Positions 1,635 through 56,032 of a stretch of DNA of 64,000 bases are shown here, in pieces. Each line of letters opens with the position of its first letter. Position 1 is the stretch's first letter. Location of the stretch: assembly GCA_012628545.1 (NCBI GenBank), contig GCA_012628545.1_3035.1; one strand, 5' to 3'. The position numbers and the translations under genes are program-made. The notes beneath the pieces are model-generated. The model ran no database searches and was not told the origin of the DNA. It saw only the letters and a program-made list of their open reading frames with translations. This stretch comes from a phage.

Positions 1635-1942
1635 TATTTACCAATAAATTGAAGCAAATGCTCAACTTTCATGCCATTAACGGAAATCAATTTGTCAATA
1701 GAAAAACCTCGCCATGCACCGAGTTCAACATCAAATATCGGAATCATATCAGTAGATTCTTTCCGAGTAGATTCAGTCAATTTACCAGTTTGCATGGTTG
1801 GCATAAAGTCAGCATCACGGGTGCCTTTCATAGTACGAATAGTACCATCAGACTTTTCAAAAACTACATTTGAAATACCCATGGACAATTTAGTTTTCAA
1901 AATTTCACGAATTGCTACTTTTTGTTCAGTCGTCAGTTTCAT
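1634..1942 (-). CDS. hypothetical protein
   Basis: 102-aa ORF, translationally abutting neighbours. Confidence 0.5.
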   Translation of the reverse strand: MKLTTEQKVAIREILKTKLSMGISNVVFEKSDGTIRTMKGTRDADFMPTMQTGKLTESTRKESTDMIPIFDVELGAWRGFSIDKLISVNGMKVEHLLQFIGK

Positions 1943-2179
1943 TTATTTACCTATTACAGTTTTAATATGAGTTGTTCCACGTTCTTTAAGAGTGGAAAGC
2001 AATTTTTGGCATTTTTCTAAATCAGATTTCCAACTATACGGCCTATCAATACAAACCCATTCTGACTTATAATACTGTTTCCATTTAGAGAAAAAATATT
2101 TCTTATACTCTACAGCAAATGAAATGTTCTCGTTAGAATAAGAACTAATTGCTGTGAGCTGTACCAAACGAAATTTCAT
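1943..2179 (-). CDS. hypothetical protein
   Basis: 78-aa ORF. Confidence 0.45.
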   Translation of the reverse strand: MKFRLVQLTAISSYSNENISFAVEYKKYFFSKWKQYYKSEWVCIDRPYSWKSDLEKCQKLLSTLKERGTTHIKTVIGK

Positions 2180-2760
2180 TATTCACCACAGAATTCGTTG
2201 ATATTTTCCCAATTTAACTTATTTAAGTTTTTCTTAGGAACATTAAACACTTCAATACCCGCATTTCGCAGAATATCATCCCAGCCAGGTTTATTTTTAT
2301 CGTATGTTTCGCAATAAACCAGCTTTTTAATTCCAGATTGAGCTATCGCTTTTGCACAATCTGGGCAAGGAGAAAGTGTTACATACATAGTAGCACCTTC
2401 AATTGAAGAACCATTTCGCGCAGCAAACAAAATCGCATTTAGTTCAGCATGAATTTCATTTTTAGACGACCACTCAGAGTGAGCACTACGATGTTCTTTC
2501 GCCAAGACAAAACGATCAGTTGAACCAAATGATACACATTCAGGCTTATGACCTTGAATGATAGTATGTTTAGGCTTATTCAGCAACCAACCTTGCTCAG
2601 CAGCATAATCGCAGCAATTCACACCCCCGGCAGGTGAACCATTATATCCGGTAGAAATAATACGTCCATTCTTTTCAATTACCGCTCCTACCTTCCAGGA
2701 GCAACATTTTGATTCTTGTGATACTAAATATGCAATTTGAAGTACTGTACTCGCTTTCAT
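2179..2760 (-). CDS. cd: dCMP deaminase
   Basis: 193-aa ORF with cytidine/dCMP deaminase zinc motifs (HAE ... PCPDC); T4 Cd length. Confidence 0.85.
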   Translation of the reverse strand: MKASTVLQIAYLVSQESKCCSWKVGAVIEKNGRIISTGYNGSPAGGVNCCDYAAEQGWLLNKPKHTIIQGHKPECVSFGSTDRFVLAKEHRSAHSEWSSKNEIHAELNAILFAARNGSSIEGATMYVTLSPCPDCAKAIAQSGIKKLVYCETYDKNKPGWDDILRNAGIEVFNVPKKNLNKLNWENINEFCGE

Positions 2761-3095
2761 TTCATAATCACCAGATAAGCAGATTTAGCAGTTTCAACAC
2801 GATAAATTTCGTGACGAAGTTTAGTTATACTTTTAATAACAGAACTAATTATATTCTGCCCATCTTTAAAGCGGTTTTTCTTATCAATAAAAATTGCACC
2901 AGCCATCTTTTTGTGAAGCTCAACTGGATACTTCGTCACAATAATAGCATCATACACAGAAGGATGAATACTATTCACTAGAGTGTCATTCATTAAAGTT
3001 ATTCTAATGAACTGTGCTGTGTCAGAGTCAAGCGCTCTATGATCGCCAGTATCATTTTCAAGACAATTATCAATTATATCAGTTAAATTCATCAT
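2757..3095 (-). CDS. hypothetical protein
   Basis: 112-aa ORF, start overlaps upstream stop. Confidence 0.5.
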   Translation of the reverse strand: MMNLTDIIDNCLENDTGDHRALDSDTAQFIRITLMNDTLVNSIHPSVYDAIIVTKYPVELHKKMAGAIFIDKKNRFKDGQNIISSVIKSITKLRHEIYRVETAKSAYLVIMK

Positions 3096-16191: not shown

Positions 16192-17100
16192 TTAAAGGTC
16201 ATTCAAAAGGTCATCCAGGTCCGTGTCATCAGCACTAGATGAACTGCTAGAGCTTGAGCTCATAAAATCATCTTCAGTTTTTGTATTGAAGTCATCAACA
16301 TTGAATGCATCCAAATCATCAGCAACTTTATCAGCTTTCTTAGCGGCAGTTGCTGCGGCACCGCCCATCACAGCAGTTCCCATAACTTGACCGAATTTAG
16401 TGCTCAGTTCTTCAAACGATTTGAATTTATCTTTAGAAGTCATTTCAGAAAGGTCAACCATTTGTTCGAACAGTTCTTTCTGGAAAGATTCATCATCAAT
16501 GTTTGGAATCGCAGATTGATTCAGGAATTTAGATTCGTCGTAGTTACTAAAACCAGAAACTTGTTTAACTTTCAGTACAAAGTTAGCACCTTCCCACGGA
16601 CAAGTTACATCAACCGGAGTTTCACCCATTTCAACATCAACTGCAATCATTGCATTGATTTTATCCCAGATTTTCTTACCGAAACGGTATTTAAATACTT
16701 TACCTTCGTTTTCTGGAGCAGCTGGGTCTTTTACAACAAGAATGTTAGCCCAGTAAGAAGTTTTACGTTTAACAAGACTGTACTCTTTATTGTCAGTGTT
16801 GTACAGATCATTTTTACTAATGTATTGACATACTGGGCAAGAATCGTAATCACCGTGGGTAGATGAACAGTTTTCAATATACCATTTACCATTTTTCTTG
16901 AAACCGTGATTTACAAGAATTGCGAACGGTGCTTGTTCATCATTTTTAGACGGAAGAAAACGAATTACTGCTTGACCGTTACCCGCATTGTCGAGTTTCA
17001 GTTTCCACTCGCCTTTATCTTCAGAAGAAAAACCACCTTTATTTCCAGCCAGTTTAGCCATTTGTGCAGCGAGTTCAGCAGTAGATTTACGTTTAAACAT
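16192..17100 (-). CDS. 32: single-stranded DNA-binding protein
   Basis: 302-aa ORF with acidic Ser/Asp-rich C-terminal tail; matches T4 gp32. Confidence 0.95.
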
Positions 17101-17202: not shown

Positions 17203-17852
17203 TACTTGCAAGATTTCACAGTTTCAATGAAAACACTTTTAGCTTTCTGTGAATCAATATTTAAAATTTTTCTATAAGCCTTTAACTTTATAGAATAATT
17301 ATTCCAGACTAAATTATCAGTCTGTTCATCATGTTTATCAATTATATTTAAAAATGAATCAAGCAAGATAAACGTCTCAAACGAAATTATGTTCGATTGC
17401 AGAAGTTTAAAAATATAACTTGACTGAACCTTTGGATTATATTCAAAGATTTCTTTAAAAGCAGAAACTTCAACTTTTTTACTAAAATAATAAATGTTGC
17501 GAATATCTTCTTCAAACTTAAATTTAATTTGCTTTAAGCGTCCGATATATTCACGATAAAACACAAGTGCATCAGCGTCAGAGATGTCACCAATCCAAGC
17601 ATCTTGGTTAGCTACAAGATTGCTAATAAAAATTAAAGTCAATTCTTTTAATTTATACTTTTCTGATAGCTTTTGGAAAAAATACTTATCCCTTCGCTTT
17701 TGATAAGCGGCATCAGACACCCGCATGCACCAATTATACTTAATAACATCATACTTTCCATTCATATGTTGTTTTATCATTAAGTATAATTTATAAACTG
17801 ATTTACCATCAATATATCTTTCACCACCAGCAGGCATGCGGAGTTTAATCAT
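17199..17852 (-). CDS. 59: helicase loader
   Basis: 217-aa ORF; T4 gp59 length and sequence recall. Confidence 0.9.
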   Translation of the reverse strand: MIKLRMPAGGERYIDGKSVYKLYLMIKQHMNGKYDVIKYNWCMRVSDAAYQKRRDKYFFQKLSEKYKLKELTLIFISNLVANQDAWIGDISDADALVFYREYIGRLKQIKFKFEEDIRNIYYFSKKVEVSAFKEIFEYNPKVQSSYIFKLLQSNIISFETFILLDSFLNIIDKHDEQTDNLVWNNYSIKLKAYRKILNIDSQKAKSVFIETVKSCKY

Positions 17853-18187
17853 AGCAGAAAATCTAATGTATTAGTTTTTTCACAACGAACAACAGAAGGA
17901 CGTAAAAGATTTTCGTCAATGGCTTCTGACTGAATTTTTTCAATTATACCCGAAGGAATAAATTTAGCAAATTGAGTTTCAGGAATAGAATTTTCTTCCA
18001 AGAATGCTGTTGTAGCTTCAAGATAACTCATTCCAAACTCTTCTACCATTTTTTCAATAATAAATCCATTTTCTTGACGATCAAGAAGCTTTGCTATTTC
18101 ATCCTTTTCTTTCTTAATTGAAAGTTCTTTTTCTGAAAGACCGGTCTCATCGACCGGACGAATATCATTTAGAGAAAACTGTGTCAT
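17849..18187 (-). CDS. 33: late transcription co-activator
   Basis: 112 aa from MTQFSL; ORF track adds 3 codons upstream. Confidence 0.8.
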   Translation of the reverse strand: MTQFSLNDIRPVDETGLSEKELSIKKEKDEIAKLLDRQENGFIIEKMVEEFGMSYLEATTAFLEENSIPETQFAKFIPSGIIEKIQSEAIDENLLRPSVVRCEKTNTLDFLL

Positions 18188-29012: not shown

Positions 29013-29669
29013 ATGGCAGCACCTAGAATATCATTTTCGCCCTCTGATATTCTGTTTGGTGTTCTAGATCGCTTGTTCAAAGATAACGCTACCGGGAAAG
29101 TTCTTGCTTCCCGGGTAGCTGTCGTAATTCTTTTATTTATGATGGCGATTGTTTGGTATAGGGGAGATAGTTTCTTTGAGTACTATAAGCAATCAAAGTA
29201 TGAAACATACAGTGAAATTATTGAAAAGGAAAGAAATGCACGCTTTGAATCTGTCGCCCTGGAACAACTCCAGATAGTTCATATATCATCTGAGGCAGAC
29301 TTTAGTGCGGTGTATTCTTTCCGCCCTAAAAACTTAAACTATTTTGTTGATATTATAGCATACGAAGGAAGATTACCTTCAACAATAACTGAAAAATCAC
29401 TTGGAGGATATCCTGTTGATAAAACTATGGATGAATATACAGTTCATTTAAATGGACGTCATTATTATTCCAACTCAAAATTTGCTTTTTTACCAACTAA
29501 AAAGCCTACTCCCGAAATAAACTACATGTACAGTTGTCCATATTTTAATTTGGATAATATCTATGCTGGAACGATAACCATGTACTGGTATAGAAATGAT
29601 CATATAAGTAATGACCGCCTTGAATCAATATGTGCTCAGGCGGCCAGAATATTAGGAAGGGCTAAATAA
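29013..29669 (+). CDS. t: holin
   Basis: 218-aa ORF with a single N-terminal transmembrane segment after a late promoter; T4 T holin. Confidence 0.9.
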   Translation: MAAPRISFSPSDILFGVLDRLFKDNATGKVLASRVAVVILLFMMAIVWYRGDSFFEYYKQSKYETYSEIIEKERNARFESVALEQLQIVHISSEADFSAVYSFRPKNLNYFVDIIAYEGRLPSTITEKSLGGYPVDKTMDEYTVHLNGRHYYSNSKFAFLPTKKPTPEINYMYSCPYFNLDNIYAGTITMYWYRNDHISNDRLESICAQAARILGRAK

Positions 29670-53012: not shown

Positions 53013-53270
53013 TTAACCACCAATACCTGGAGTTGGCGTAACAGTCCAAAGACCTTCATTAGCAGTGATCCATTCAGTACGCTGATTTTCTTCATATACT
53101 GTAGAATATGCTGCTTTTTCAGAAGGGAATGTCTGATAATGAGCACCAGAAATTTTGTGAACATCAGAATAAAGAGGGAAAGCTACAGAAATTTCTTTAC
53201 CCTGAATTGTACCACCATCAACTGCTTGGTCAAATGTTTTGATATTAACATAACCGCGAGTACTAGCCAT
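53013..53270 (-). CDS. soc: small outer capsid protein
   Basis: 85-aa ORF beginning MASTRGYVNIKTF; sequence recall of T4 Soc. Confidence 0.8.
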   Translation of the reverse strand: MASTRGYVNIKTFDQAVDGGTIQGKEISVAFPLYSDVHKISGAHYQTFPSEKAAYSTVYEENQRTEWITANEGLWTVTPTPGIGG

Positions 53271-53517: not shown

Positions 53518-53691
53518 TTTAAAGCTTCTTCACTGACAAAATTTCGTCAGGACCTTCTTCTATAACCCAATCAACCATACGAAGTTGATTAGTTAAGAGC
53601 TCACATACGAGCTCCTTGTTATAATCTTTAAATAGCTGGTCAATACGTTTCTTATGGGCTTTCTTAAGCTGACGCTTATTTAAACGAGCCA
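53518..53691 (-). CDS. small basic hypothetical protein (57 aa)
   Basis: Hand-translated MARLNKRQLKKAHKKRIDQ...; below ORF-track cutoff. Confidence 0.35.
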
Positions 53692-54210
53692 TTAATAACC
53701 TCGGTCTTGACGAGCGAAGTTTTCAGCATTTTTCAGGTAATAAAGTTTAAAGATTTCTTCAGCTGACATTCCAAGAGCAATAAATTTATTCATGAAAAAA
53801 TGAAATTGGTCAATAAGTTCAAATTTAATTTCAAGCTGATCTTCGGGAGATAAATCTTGAATTTTCTTGGATTGCATTTCAGAATAACGTTTCTTCCAAG
53901 GTTTCCATACAGCAGAAGCTTCTTTTTCGCCATTACTCATACCACCGAGAGAAGTATATAGCTCGCGAGTTTCGTCTGCGATATAATCGTCTTGGTTTCG
54001 CAGCCAAGCAAGAACTTCTCCTGCAGTTTCAAGTGAATCAGGATGACGATTTGTTTCTGGTTTATCATTAGCCAAACGAATCTGTAAATGCCGCTGCATG
54101 TCAAGCATAACCTGCAGTGGGTCAATATTGTGCATAATATTCTCAGCATATGCACGATTTGCTTTATCAACACCTTCGATCAAATGAGCGCATTCATTAA
54201 AGTAAGCCAT
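53692..54210 (-). CDS. 56: dCTPase/dUTPase (dCTP pyrophosphatase)
   Basis: 172 aa from internal ATG (MAYFNECAHL); ORF-track extension is upstream hydrophobic read-through. Confidence 0.85.
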   Translation of the reverse strand: MAYFNECAHLIEGVDKANRAYAENIMHNIDPLQVMLDMQRHLQIRLANDKPETNRHPDSLETAGEVLAWLRNQDDYIADETRELYTSLGGMSNGEKEASAVWKPWKKRYSEMQSKKIQDLSPEDQLEIKFELIDQFHFFMNKFIALGMSAEEIFKLYYLKNAENFARQDRGY

Positions 54211-54244
54211 TATTTTTCCTTTCAATTCATGGGTTAGTAGATTA

Positions 54245-54270
54245 ATTATACAATAAATATATAAAGCAAT
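54245..54270 (-). promoter_or_regulatory. MotA-dependent middle promoter for gene 56
   Basis: Minus strand ATTGCTTTA MotA box, 11-12 bp, TATAAT. Confidence 0.5.
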
Positions 54271-54281
54271 AAGGATGACAT

Positions 54282-54482
54282 ATGGTACAAAAATTAATGG
54301 CACTTGTTAATGCCATAAAAGGTAATAAAAAACGTATAGCTTTTACTATTTCTGCTATGGTAGGAATTTTACTCTGGAACTTTATTCTATCACCTGTTGC
54401 AATTGCACATGGTATTAATATTCCAGTAGTTACTCTTGATACATTTGTAGATTTAGCATTTGCTTTAGTTGGGTTAATTTAA
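54282..54482 (+). CDS. hypothetical small membrane protein
   Basis: 66-aa plus-strand ORF with AAGGA SD 6 nt upstream of ATG; two hydrophobic segments. Confidence 0.4.
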   Translation: MVQKLMALVNAIKGNKKRIAFTISAMVGILLWNFILSPVAIAHGINIPVVTLDTFVDLAFALVGLI

Positions 54483-55507
54483 ATCTTAGCATATTTAGAT
54501 AACCGCATTTTAGCCATTAACCCCTGGGCAATATTATTTTTCATATATTCCATAATTTGTTCAGGGGTTGCACCTTCCTTTCTAATCATATCATTGACGT
54601 CTTTTGATTTCCAGGGAGATTTATCCCAAAACATAACCCTTTCTCCTGCATCAACTAATTTAGTCATTCGTTTGATAGTGTCAGGGTGACGAGGTTCATT
54701 ATCTAAGACCCACACTCGTCTATCTTTAAATGGAACAACTTCTAGGTCTAATTGACCGCCCGTAATAGCTATACCATTTTCAATAAAAAGTGAATCTATA
54801 GGTCCTTCTAGAACATATACATCGCCATCTTTAACTCGTTCGACTCCATATATTTTTGTTGCCTCAGGATAAGCTTTAATGGTGATATATTTTTGAGGAG
54901 CATCTTTCTTTAATGCACGTCCTTGAAAAGACTCAGCTTTTCCATTAGCATTATAAATTGGAATAACAAGACGAGGCTCAGAAATTTCCTTTTTGTATGT
55001 TCCCGGTGCTATGCTATTAACTAATTTAGGCCATTCAGTTGTAAACCAAAGATATTTCCATTTATCCTTTGGAATACAACGAGCTTTTACATATTTTATA
55101 ATTGCATGGTCTTCCGCCAGTTTATCTAATCTAACACATGACGGAAGAGATTTAATTATTTTCTTCTCAGGTTGTTTAGGAAGTTCTTTAGGTTTTTCTA
55201 CTGGACGACTTTTACCTCTTTCTTTTCTTATTTCAAAGATATACTCACGATATAAATCAGGTTCAAACTCCTTTAAATATATTCCGATTGGTGCATGATA
55301 GTTACAGTTATAACAATGAATATTTCCTTCATTATTATCACCATAATACCATCCACGAGCTTTATTCTGATCGGTTTTTGAATCTCCACAAACAGGACAT
55401 CTAAACCGTAATTTAAAAGTTGAACTATTATTTACTTGTGTGAATTTAGGTAAATGAGCTAATGCACGGTATGCAAACTCATTATCAATCCAAGGTATTG
55501 ATGACAT
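54479..55507 (-). CDS. 61: DNA primase
   Basis: 342-aa ORF with N-terminal zinc-ribbon CxxC...CxxC and TOPRIM-like region; T4 gp61 length. Confidence 0.9.
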   Translation of the reverse strand: MSSIPWIDNEFAYRALAHLPKFTQVNNSSTFKLRFRCPVCGDSKTDQNKARGWYYGDNNEGNIHCYNCNYHAPIGIYLKEFEPDLYREYIFEIRKERGKSRPVEKPKELPKQPEKKIIKSLPSCVRLDKLAEDHAIIKYVKARCIPKDKWKYLWFTTEWPKLVNSIAPGTYKKEISEPRLVIPIYNANGKAESFQGRALKKDAPQKYITIKAYPEATKIYGVERVKDGDVYVLEGPIDSLFIENGIAITGGQLDLEVVPFKDRRVWVLDNEPRHPDTIKRMTKLVDAGERVMFWDKSPWKSKDVNDMIRKEGATPEQIMEYMKNNIAQGLMAKMRLSKYAKI

Positions 55508-55675: not shown

Positions 55676-56032
55676 TTAACCTTTATTCATAAAAGCATTA
55701 AAAATTTGGTCATCAATAGAAGGTGCAGCAATATTTTCTGCATCATTTAGCAAATCATTAATTTCATCAGATAGCATAACACATGTACCTTTATTTCCCG
55801 TAATTGTTACTGCGCAATTACGAACGTTTTCTTTATTAAATTTTAGGTTAATATTTTCGTAATGAAAATCCTTTAATGCTGAATATATTTTTAAAATAAA
55901 ATTGTCTTTTACTACAATAAACCCAACCTCACTATTAAAACGTGGTTCATGGAAACTGTAATAAACCTTTTCATCTATAAAATCGTATGAAATTTTTTCC
56001 ATTTTTAAATATGAAAATTCAGAACTATACAT
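55676..56032 (-). CDS. hypothetical protein
   Basis: 118-aa ORF. Confidence 0.5.
   Translation of the reverse strand: MYSSEFSYLKMEKISYDFIDEKVYYSFHEPRFNSEVGFIVVKDNFILKIYSALKDFHYENINLKFNKENVRNCAVTITGNKGTCVMLSDEINDLLNDAENIAAPSIDDQIFNAFMNKG

What the first reader, a model, noticed from the sequence alone, without database searches (positions are those of the whole stretch)
54211..54482. Plus-strand ORF embedded in a minus-strand early region
A 66-aa ORF with two hydrophobic segments and an AAGGA Shine-Dalgarno sits on the plus strand between gene 56 and gene 61. It is the only plus-strand candidate gene in the minus-strand early region and lies immediately upstream of, and divergent from, the gene 56 middle promoter. 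No exact TATAAATA late promoter precedes it, so its promoter is unclear. The interval is also where I would expect a replication-origin region (oriA) in T4.
Basis: partly seen in the sequence, partly recalled or inferred. Interest (0 to 1): 0.5.

Follow-up and report, generated by a model that had tools for sequence, protein, structure and literature searches.

The report
T4 dam.1: small late membrane gene
The plus-strand ORF is a real, conserved 66-codon gene of T4-like phages, already annotated elsewhere as "dam.1, hypothetical protein". It most likely encodes a small inner-membrane protein made late in infection, and its function is unknown.

Summary
Window 54282..54482 (+) is a 66-codon ORF with an AAGGA Shine-Dalgarno. 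It fills the gap between gene 56 (dCTPase) and gene 61 (primase) of a Tequatrovirus.

It is a real gene, not a chance ORF:
- It is full length in 692 of 699 phage records.
- It is found in at least six groups of T4-like enterobacterial phages, at 26-55% identity outside Tequatrovirus.
- It always converges on the primase 3' end.
- dN/dS is 0.13-0.22, third codon positions vary most, and one relative has an in-frame 3-codon deletion.

It is not new. The T4T record (HM137666) calls it dam.1, it belongs to PHROG 2024 (unknown function), and hundreds of genomes annotate it. The reference T4 records omit it.

In fact AATAAATA, the commonest T4 late-promoter variant, lies 22 nt upstream of the ATG. 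An NATAAATA box is conserved there in 12 of 13 genomes, and this heptamer is strongly depleted in the window.

The protein is predicted to have a basic N-terminal helix, one transmembrane helix and a short acidic hydrophobic C-terminal helix, oriented N-in/C-out. No family with a known function matches it. The position homologous to T4 oriA lies about 25 nt inside gene 56, outside the ORF, but the oriA primer promoter lies in the interval.

Real gene, ordinary finding, function open.

The parts
54282..54482 (+). Coding sequence of the Dam.1-family protein, 66 aa plus stop: MVQKLMALVNAIKGNKKRIAFTISAMVGILLWNFILSPVAIAHGINIPVVTLDTFVDLAFALVGLI
   Evidence: - ORF listed.
- Matches phrog_2024 over its full length, E=1.4e-31.
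- Same ORF annotated as dam.1 in T4T.
- Full length in 692 of 699 phage records.
- dN/dS 0.13-0.22.
- Codon-position bias, and the only frame open in all 14 sequences.
54271..54275 (+). Shine-Dalgarno AAGGA, 6 nt before the ATG. Relatives have AAGGAGG.
   Evidence: Sequence; upstream regions of 13 relatives.
54252..54259 (+). Late-promoter-like box AATAAATA (consensus TATAAATA, A at -13), 22 nt before the ATG.
   Evidence: - Located.
- An NATAAATA box is kept 14-23 nt upstream of the ATG in 12 of 13 genomes.
- ATAAATA occurs 13 times in the window against 36.5 expected.
- The A(-13) variant is the commonest T4 late-promoter variant (PMC2988020).
- Promoter activity is inferred, not shown.
54262..54269 (-). 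MotA box TTGCTTTA of the gene 56 middle promoter. In T4 this promoter makes the oriA primer transcript.
   Evidence: Read from the sequence. Same arrangement as the mot box of P(M)16.53 annotated in X01416. Present in Mosigvirus and Gaprivervirus upstream regions.
54245..54250 (-). -10 hexamer TATAAT of the gene 56 middle promoter, 11 nt downstream of the MotA box. The plus-strand late box lies in that spacer.
   Evidence: Sequence; comparison with X01416 features.
54287..54316 (-). Terminator-like hairpin ATGGCATT-AACA-AGTGCCAT followed by TAATTTTTGT. It lies downstream of gene 61 on the minus strand and is encoded within codons 2-12 of the plus-strand ORF.
   Evidence: Found by the scan. A terminator is annotated at the same place in Yersinia phage fPS-2. 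The hairpin is kept only within Tequatrovirus.
53692..54213 (-). Gene 56 (dCTPase), the divergent left neighbour. The position homologous to the T4 oriA annotation (T4 16763) is about 54188.
   Evidence: phrog_173 match; T4 annotation; position mapped by comparing.
54479..55507 (-). Gene 61 (DNA primase), the convergent right neighbour. Its stop codon overlaps the ORF stop.
   Evidence: phrog_47 match, E=2e-105; ORF; annotation in relatives.

Best explanation
The ORF is the Tequatrovirus gene dam.1, a real protein-coding gene.

**Expression (inferred).** It is most likely transcribed only late in infection by the gp55/gp33/gp45 form of RNA polymerase. The promoter would be the weak, non-consensus late box AATAAATA at 54252-54259. 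The transcript would start a few bases downstream of the box and be translated from the AAGGA site.

**Product (predicted).** The product is a 66-residue inner-membrane microprotein.
- A basic amphipathic N-terminal helix (residues 2-12, then KGNKKR) stays in the cytoplasm.
- Residues about 16-42 span the membrane once.
- A conserved turn (AHG-x3-P) and a short acidic hydrophobic helix (residues 52-63) lie at the periplasmic face.
- The invariant residues W32, N33, P38, G44, P48 and G64 cluster in the outer half of the membrane span and the turn. This suggests the protein works by helix-helix contact with itself or with another membrane protein.

**Role (inferred).** It would modulate some envelope process of the late infected cell, such as lysis timing or inhibition, superinfection, or membrane-bound assembly, and would not be an enzyme. 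The locus is variable and some T4-like genera lack the gene, so it is probably an accessory gene, not an essential one.

**What is shown and what is not.** The ORF, its conservation, purifying selection, the conserved promoter-like box and the predicted helices are shown. Late transcription, membrane insertion, topology and physiological role are inferred.
For: **Coding.**
- The ORF is present in 699 phage records and full length in 692.
- Relatives share 49-56% identity in Mosigvirus and Gaprivervirus, about 30% in Karamvirus and Klebsiella phages, and 20% in Dhakavirus JS98.
- It is always 63-69 aa long and always converges on primase.
- dN/dS is 0.13-0.22 within Tequatrovirus and 0.16 within Gaprivervirus.
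- Variable sites at codon positions 1, 2 and 3 number 9, 2 and 14. The pair L004/L005 differs at 33, 13 and 43 sites.
- The +1 frame is the only frame open in all 14 sequences.
- Phage OE5505 carries an in-frame 3-codon deletion.

**Late expression.**
- An NATAAATA box lies 14-23 nt upstream of the ATG in 12 of 13 genomes, although the flanks differ.
- The heptamer is depleted in the window, 13 observed against 36.5 +/- 6.5 expected.
- Other occurrences sit at late-gene starts such as soc and t, with the same geometry.
- The A(-13) variant accounts for 9 of 50 listed T4 late promoters, and all early and middle T4 transcripts have the opposite polarity (PMC2988020).

**Membrane protein.**
- The AlphaFold model has mean pLDDT 77, with helices at 2-12, 16-42 and 52-63.
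- The most hydrophobic 19-residue stretch has Kyte-Doolittle 2.0. The N-flank has net charge +5 and the C-flank -2.
- Invariant residues are listed.

**Accessory role.**
- The gene is absent where genes 61 and 56 abut, in Krischvirus and a Slopekvirus-like Klebsiella phage; in Muldoonvirus and one Karamvirus a different same-strand gene lies between them.
- The left neighbour varies: gene 56, dam, a homing endonuclease or an unknown ORF.
Against: - No transcript, ribosome or protein evidence was found in the searchable literature.
- The late box is one base off consensus in every genome. It is not recognisable in Karamvirus CkP1, which has ATTAAATA.
- In the window the box lies inside the spacer of the opposing MotA promoter, so part of its conservation could serve that promoter.
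- No known family, structure or defence-related model matches, so the functional class rests on physicochemical features only.
- The reference T4 annotation omits the gene.
Confidence: 0.6

Rival explanations
1. The ORF is not translated. The interval is non-coding regulatory DNA (gene 61 3'UTR and terminator, the gene 56 / oriA promoter, origin-associated sequence), and the open frame is a by-product of its conservation.
For: - The interval holds a minus-strand terminator-like hairpin (annotated in fPS-2) and the MotA middle promoter.
- A 66-codon ORF arises by chance in about 2% of random sequences of this size.
- The curated T4 reference annotations do not call it.
Against: - Purifying selection acts on the plus frame, with dN/dS 0.13-0.22.
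- Variation is biased by codon position.
- The frame stays open over six groups of phages at only 26-55% amino-acid identity, with a conserved motif.
- One relative has an in-frame deletion.
- The terminator hairpin is not conserved outside Tequatrovirus, although the ORF is.
- The promoter elements lie upstream of the ORF, not inside it.
Confidence: 0.05
2. The first 42 residues act as a long cleavable Sec signal peptide. Signal peptidase I cuts after A42, in the pattern P-x-A-x-A | H-G. This releases a 24-residue acidic hydrophobic peptide at the periplasmic face, and that peptide is the active species.
For: - The family-wide pattern directly after the hydrophobic segment is Pro at -5, A or L at -3, A, S or T at -1, then [HNYQ]-G.
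- The N-terminal region is positively charged.
Against: - The hydrophobic segment (about 18-24 residues) and the N-terminal region (18 residues) are long for a cleaved signal peptide, and AlphaFold models one continuous 27-residue helix.
- The N-terminal amphipathic helix is itself well conserved (K4, L5, L8, A11, I12, K13, K17), which is unusual for a disposable leader.
- No signal-peptide predictor was available, so this was not tested.
Confidence: 0.1
3. It is a holin, pinholin or antiholin-type lysis protein, as one UniProt label ('Holin' for the OE5505 orthologue) suggests.
For: - It is a small, membrane-spanning, probably late-expressed phage protein.
- The OE5505 member carries a 'Holin' label in UniRef and BFVD.
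Against: - No holin HMM in Pfam, NCBIfam or PHROGs matches it. PHROG 2024 is 'unknown function'.
- The C-terminus is hydrophobic, not the charged cytoplasmic tail typical of holins.
- It lies between primase and dCTPase, not in a lysis cassette.
- The same genome encodes the canonical T holin at 29013..29669 (PF11031, E=1e-116).
- The label is on a single member and appears automatic.
Confidence: 0.1
4. The main product is RNA. The late plus-strand transcript reads on into gene 61 and acts as an antisense RNA that shuts down primase (or early-transcript) expression late in infection. The small ORF would be secondary.
For: - No plus-strand terminator was found downstream of the ORF within 53900-55000.
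- The ORF stop overlaps the gene 61 stop, so any read-through is antisense to gene 61.
- T4 is known to transcribe both strands at several sites at different times (PMC2988020).
Against: - The protein sequence is under purifying selection, which an antisense role would not require.
- In Gaprivervirus VR20 the ORF is separated from gene 61 by 200 nt holding another ORF copy.
- There are no data on transcript length.
Confidence: 0.1

Closest known systems
dam.1 of phage T4T (GenBank HM137666, ADJ39749.1), also PHROG 2024 and the 'hypothetical protein' between dam/56 and 61 in Tequatrovirus, Mosigvirus and Gaprivervirus genomes
   Same: It is the same gene. The T4 copy is 97% identical in protein sequence, has the same length and convergent position on gene 61 with overlapping stops, and matches the PHROG over its full length.
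   Different: In this phage dam is absent. The gene therefore directly faces gene 56, and its late box sits inside the spacer of the gene 56 middle promoter. In T4 it faces dam. The family has no assigned function.
T4 late genes set among early genes, for example soc (window 53013..53270, minus strand)
   Same: Both are small genes with a TATAAATA-type box 17-30 nt upstream of the ATG and a strong Shine-Dalgarno.
   Different: soc has the exact consensus and lies on the same strand as the early genes. dam.1 has a non-consensus first base in every genome examined and lies on the opposite strand.
Small T4 envelope proteins: Imm (superinfection immunity), RI (antiholin with a signal-anchor-release domain) and Sp (spackle)
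   Same: All are short phage proteins acting at the inner membrane or periplasm. RI likewise has an N-terminal membrane segment and a periplasmic C-terminal part (from knowledge of T4 biology, not tested here).
   Different: There is no detectable sequence or profile similarity. The family HMM finds no paralogue in the window, which contains sp. The periplasmic part is only about 24 residues. Those genes are transcribed from the early strand.
Class II holins and pinholins, such as S21 68
   Same: Similar size and hydrophobic helices.
   Different: There is no HMM match, no charged C-terminal tail, only one convincing membrane span, and it lies outside any lysis cassette. The genome already has holin T.

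Membership tests
Dam.1 / PHROG 2024 family of T4-like phages | Full-length match to the family profile | tested here: met
   phrog_2024, E=1.4e-31, residues 2-66 against profile positions 1-65 of 65.
Dam.1 / PHROG 2024 family of T4-like phages | Position: convergent with, and abutting, the 3' end of primase gene 61 | tested here: met
   Window. The arrangement is the same in T4, MLF4, Mosigvirus, Karamvirus CkP1, JS98 and a Klebsiella phage; in Gaprivervirus VR20 the gene is 200 nt from primase.
Dam.1 / PHROG 2024 family of T4-like phages | Conserved core W-N-x4-P-x5-G-x3-P and a length of 63-69 aa | tested here: met
   W32, N33, P38, G44, P48 and G64 are invariant in alignments A1-A3.
T4 late (gp55-dependent) transcription unit | TATAAATA box about one helical turn upstream of the transcription start | tested here: inconclusive
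   AATAAATA matches 7 of 8 positions and is the A(-13) variant at 54252-54259, conserved as NATAAATA in 12 of 13 genomes. Variant promoters are known to function (PMC2988020), but there is no exact consensus here.
T4 late (gp55-dependent) transcription unit | A transcript that appears late and depends on gp55, gp33, gp45 and replication | not testable with these tools
   No expression data were found.
Holins | Match to a holin family model | tested here: not met
   No Pfam or NCBIfam hit at E<=10 for this protein. The PHROG is 'unknown function'. Foldseek finds only its own family.
Holins | Charged hydrophilic C-terminal tail, and a location in a lysis cassette | tested here: not met
   The C-terminus is ...AFALVGLI, and the C-flank has net charge -2. 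The neighbours are primase and dCTPase. Holin T is elsewhere in the window.
Sec signal-peptide (cleaved) secreted peptides | n-h-c architecture with small residues at -1 and -3 | tested here: inconclusive
   The pattern P-x-[AL]-x-[AST] | [HNYQ]-G is conserved, but the n and h regions are unusually long. No predictor was available.
T4 replication origin oriA | Homology to the position annotated as oriA in T4 and to its middle-promoter primer transcript | tested here: met
   This holds for the interval, not for the ORF. T4 oriA at 16763 lies in the 5' end of gene 56, about window 54188. The MotA promoter at 54245-54269 (minus strand) corresponds to P(M)16.53. Origin activity cannot be tested here.

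The most novel reading that the evidence does not exclude
Dam.1 would be an overlooked late inner-membrane microprotein of T4-like phages with a specific regulatory role at the envelope. One example would be tuning holin T / antiholin RI timing, or late superinfection exclusion. Its invariably non-consensus late promoter would keep its dose low. In dam-less phages such as this one, that promoter is nested in the spacer of the gene 56 / oriA middle promoter. Late-polymerase binding there could then help to silence the origin primer promoter.
Probability: 0.12. Interest if true: 0.55.

Novelty: already known. Interest (0 to 1): 0.3.

Why it matters
T4 is among the most thoroughly annotated viruses, yet its reference records (AF158101.6, NC_000866.4) omit this conserved gene. 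Studies that rely on those annotations, such as microarrays, RNA-seq counting and CRISPRi libraries built on annotated CDSs, would therefore not have looked at it.

After R18 the protein has no lysine or arginine. Trypsin would leave one 48-residue hydrophobic peptide, so standard proteomics would also miss it.

If it proves to be expressed, it adds one more uncharacterised late membrane protein to T4's envelope and lysis biology. It also illustrates a late gene nested head-to-head with a middle promoter. As a genome-scan finding, though, it is a correct call of an already annotated hypothetical gene, not a new kind of element.

Tried and rejected
- **Family searches.** Pfam, NCBIfam and PADLOC gave nothing, or only noise at E>0.01, for four family members.
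- **Full HMMER search.** A search of 1.84 billion representative proteins found only the family itself, plus spurious hits to long repetitive hydrophobic proteins.
- **Profile searches.** Two searches of 5.8 billion proteins extended the family to Klebsiella, Salmonella and Citrobacter T4-like phages. They gave no named function and no bacterial homologue.
- **Fold searches.** BFVD returned only family members and the PDB returned nothing. The afdb50 library was unavailable.
- **RNA and repeats.** Rfam found no RNA family on 54000-54700. The repeat search found nothing origin-like, such as iterons.
- **Paralogues.** A family HMM search of six-frame ORFs in the window found none.
- **IMG/VR scan.** This gave only five near-identical loci.
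- **Literature.**
  - There were no hits for 'dam.1' and no T4 ribosome-profiling or TSS-mapping paper covering this ORF.
  - The CRISPRi-ART and HIDEN-SEQ papers do not mention it in their main text.
  - The T4 genome review (PMC150520) is not held.
- **Rejected idea.** The minus-strand terminator hairpin does not explain the conservation, because it is conserved only within Tequatrovirus.

Full report
**What the window is.** The region 53600-55000 is 98.5% identical to Escherichia phage MLF4 and similar Tequatrovirus genomes. The minus-strand ORF 53692..54213 is gene 56 (dCTPase, phrog_173). The minus-strand ORF 54479..55507 is gene 61 (primase, phrog_47, E=2e-105). Minus-strand early genes run from about 30 kb to the end of the window. 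The tail-fibre genes and holin t lie on the plus strand at 19-30 kb.

**Observation.** The ORF is at 54282..54482 (+), 66 aa, with AAGGA 6 nt before the ATG. Its stop overlaps the stop of gene 61. On its own the ORF is only weakly significant. An ATG ORF of at least 66 aa occurs in 2.1% of random 292-nt sequences of window composition.

**Is it a gene?** The evidence says yes.
- tblastn finds the protein in 699 phage records, full length in 692. Identity is at least 90% in Tequatrovirus and 49-56% in Mosigvirus and Gaprivervirus.
- More distant members were found by position and by profile search. These are Karamvirus CkP1 (31%), Dhakavirus JS98 (unannotated there), and Klebsiella and Salmonella T4-like phages.
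- All are 63-69 aa long. All lie on the strand opposite to, and next to the 3' end of, primase.
- Nei-Gojobori dN/dS is 0.13-0.22 for Tequatrovirus pairs and 0.16 within Gaprivervirus.
- Variable columns fall 9, 2 and 14 on codon positions 1, 2 and 3 in Tequatrovirus. The counts are 12, 2, 20 and 33, 13, 43 for two more distant pairs.
- The plus frame is the only one of six free of stops in all 14 sequences examined.
- OE5505 has lost exactly three codons.

**It is already annotated.**
- T4 itself has the ORF at 17738..17938, differing by 2 aa from the window copy.
- The composite T4 records AF158101.6 and NC_000866.4 leave that 309-bp dam-61 gap empty.
- The Karam laboratory's T4T record names it dam.1, a hypothetical protein. 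Newer T4 records and hundreds of relatives annotate it as hypothetical.
- It belongs to PHROG 2024, 'unknown function'.
- In T4T it is the only plus-strand CDS among those annotated between 0 and 34 kb.

**Promoter.** There is no exact TATAAATA, but AATAAATA lies at 54252-54259, 22 nt before the ATG.
- According to the review of T4 late transcription, 32 of 50 listed late promoters are exact and 9 carry A at -13. Variant promoters are used in vitro and in vivo. [quoted passage not shown]
- The heptamer ATAAATA is strongly avoided in the window, with 13 occurrences against 36.5 +/- 6.5 in shuffles. Several of the 13 sit in front of late genes with the same geometry, including soc (30 nt) and t (17 nt).
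- In 12 of 13 genomes from five or six groups an NATAAATA box lies 14-23 nt before the ATG, although the flanks differ. N is A, G or C, never T. Karamvirus CkP1 has only ATTAAATA.
- I infer a conserved, deliberately weak late promoter. No expression data were found to confirm this.

**Other elements in the interval.**
- On the minus strand, TTGCTTTA (54269..54262) followed after 11 nt by TATAAT (54250..54245) forms a MotA-type middle promoter 32 nt before the gene 56 ATG. This matches P(M)16.53 annotated in the T4 record X01416.
- The plus-strand late box lies exactly in that 11-nt spacer, so two temporally distinct promoters overlap head-to-head.
- A terminator-like hairpin with a T-run on the minus strand (54316..54287) lies within the first codons of the ORF. 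A terminator is annotated at this place in phage fPS-2. It is not conserved outside Tequatrovirus, so it cannot explain the conservation of the ORF.
- T4 records place oriA at 16763, in the 5' end of gene 56, with the gene 56 transcript as primer. That position corresponds to about window 54188.
- Rfam and repeat searches found nothing further.

**The protein.**
- AlphaFold with a 19-sequence alignment gives mean pLDDT 77, with helices at 2-12, 16-42 and 52-63.
- The N-flank has net charge +5 and the C-flank -2. By the positive-inside rule this implies an N-in/C-out orientation.
- Invariant residues are W32, N33, P38, G44, P48 and G64. An acidic residue at position 52 is near-universal.
- The second hydrophobic segment is short and carries D52 and D56. 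I read it as a periplasmic, interfacial helix and not a second span.
- The pattern P-x-[AL]-x-[AST] | [HNYQ]-G after the span resembles a signal-peptidase site. Cleavage is a minority alternative that I could not test.
- Pfam, NCBIfam, PADLOC, PDB and BFVD give no functional lead. The single 'Holin' label on the OE5505 orthologue is unsupported, and holin T is present in the window.

**Distribution and evolution.**
- Genes 61 and 56 abut, with no room for the ORF, in a Krischvirus and a Slopekvirus-like Klebsiella phage. In a Muldoonvirus and in Karamvirus Pet-CM3-4 a different same-strand gene lies between them.
- The ORF's outer neighbour varies: gene 56, dam, a homing endonuclease or an unknown ORF.
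- Primase is 73% identical between Tequatrovirus and Mosigvirus, and Dam.1 is about 55% identical.
- Gaprivervirus VR20 carries a T4-type copy plus a second, JS98-type copy that seems truncated at its N-terminus.
- This is the profile of a fast-evolving accessory gene in a plastic locus.

**Verdict.** The finding is a correct detection of a real gene that is already annotated but functionally uncharacterised.
- My best mechanistic reading is a late, low-abundance, single-span inner-membrane microprotein acting through helix-helix contacts at the envelope. Confidence in that whole chain is about 0.6.
- Confidence that the ORF is a real coding gene is about 0.9, that it is a membrane protein about 0.8, and that it is expressed late about 0.7.
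- Novelty is 'already known' and interest is modest.

Noticed in passing
L005 (Escherichia phage VR20, KP007360) 2693-2899, plus strand: Between the T4-type Dam.1 gene and primase, VR20 carries a second, JS98-type copy of the same family. It is a 46-aa ORF, MGFLTLDVFLWNLL... The N-terminal part is out of frame relative to the 66-aa JS98 protein. This looks like tandem paralogues with one decaying.
   Followed up: partly
L021 (phage JS98, EF469154) 1926-2126, minus strand in the locus: A 66-aa divergent member of the family (…LWNLLVVPVAASQGVILPAV…) lies in the unannotated 290-bp gap between genes 61 and 56 of JS98. It has AATAAATA upstream.
   Followed up: partly
window, whole 64 kb, both strands: The heptamer ATAAATA occurs 13 times against 36.5 +/- 6.5 in dinucleotide-preserving shuffles. 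This suggests genome-wide avoidance of late-promoter-like sequence outside real late promoters.
   Followed up: partly
window 54214-54281 and the homologous places in L002, L012, L014, L015: The slot between Dam.1 and gene 56 is an insertion hot spot. It is empty in the window and SYGD1, holds dam in T4, a 561-bp unknown ORF in OE5505 and G28, and a homing endonuclease in fPS-2.
   Followed up: partly
window 55676-56032, minus strand: Where T4 and MLF4 have gene 61.2 (627 bp), this phage has a 118-aa ORF (357 bp) between 61.1 and spackle. The window therefore differs from its closest relatives just beside the finding.
   Followed up: no
protein P0034 (61 aa, from a public read-set assembly): This variant differs from the T4-type protein almost only by A>V, T>I, P>L, S>F and H>Y, which are C-to-T changes. 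It probably comes from an assembly of bisulfite-converted or deaminated reads and is not a natural allele.
   Followed up: no
window 54282-54482, protein residues 19-66: There is no Lys or Arg after R18. Trypsin would leave a single 48-residue hydrophobic peptide, so routine shotgun proteomics could not detect this protein.
   Followed up: yes
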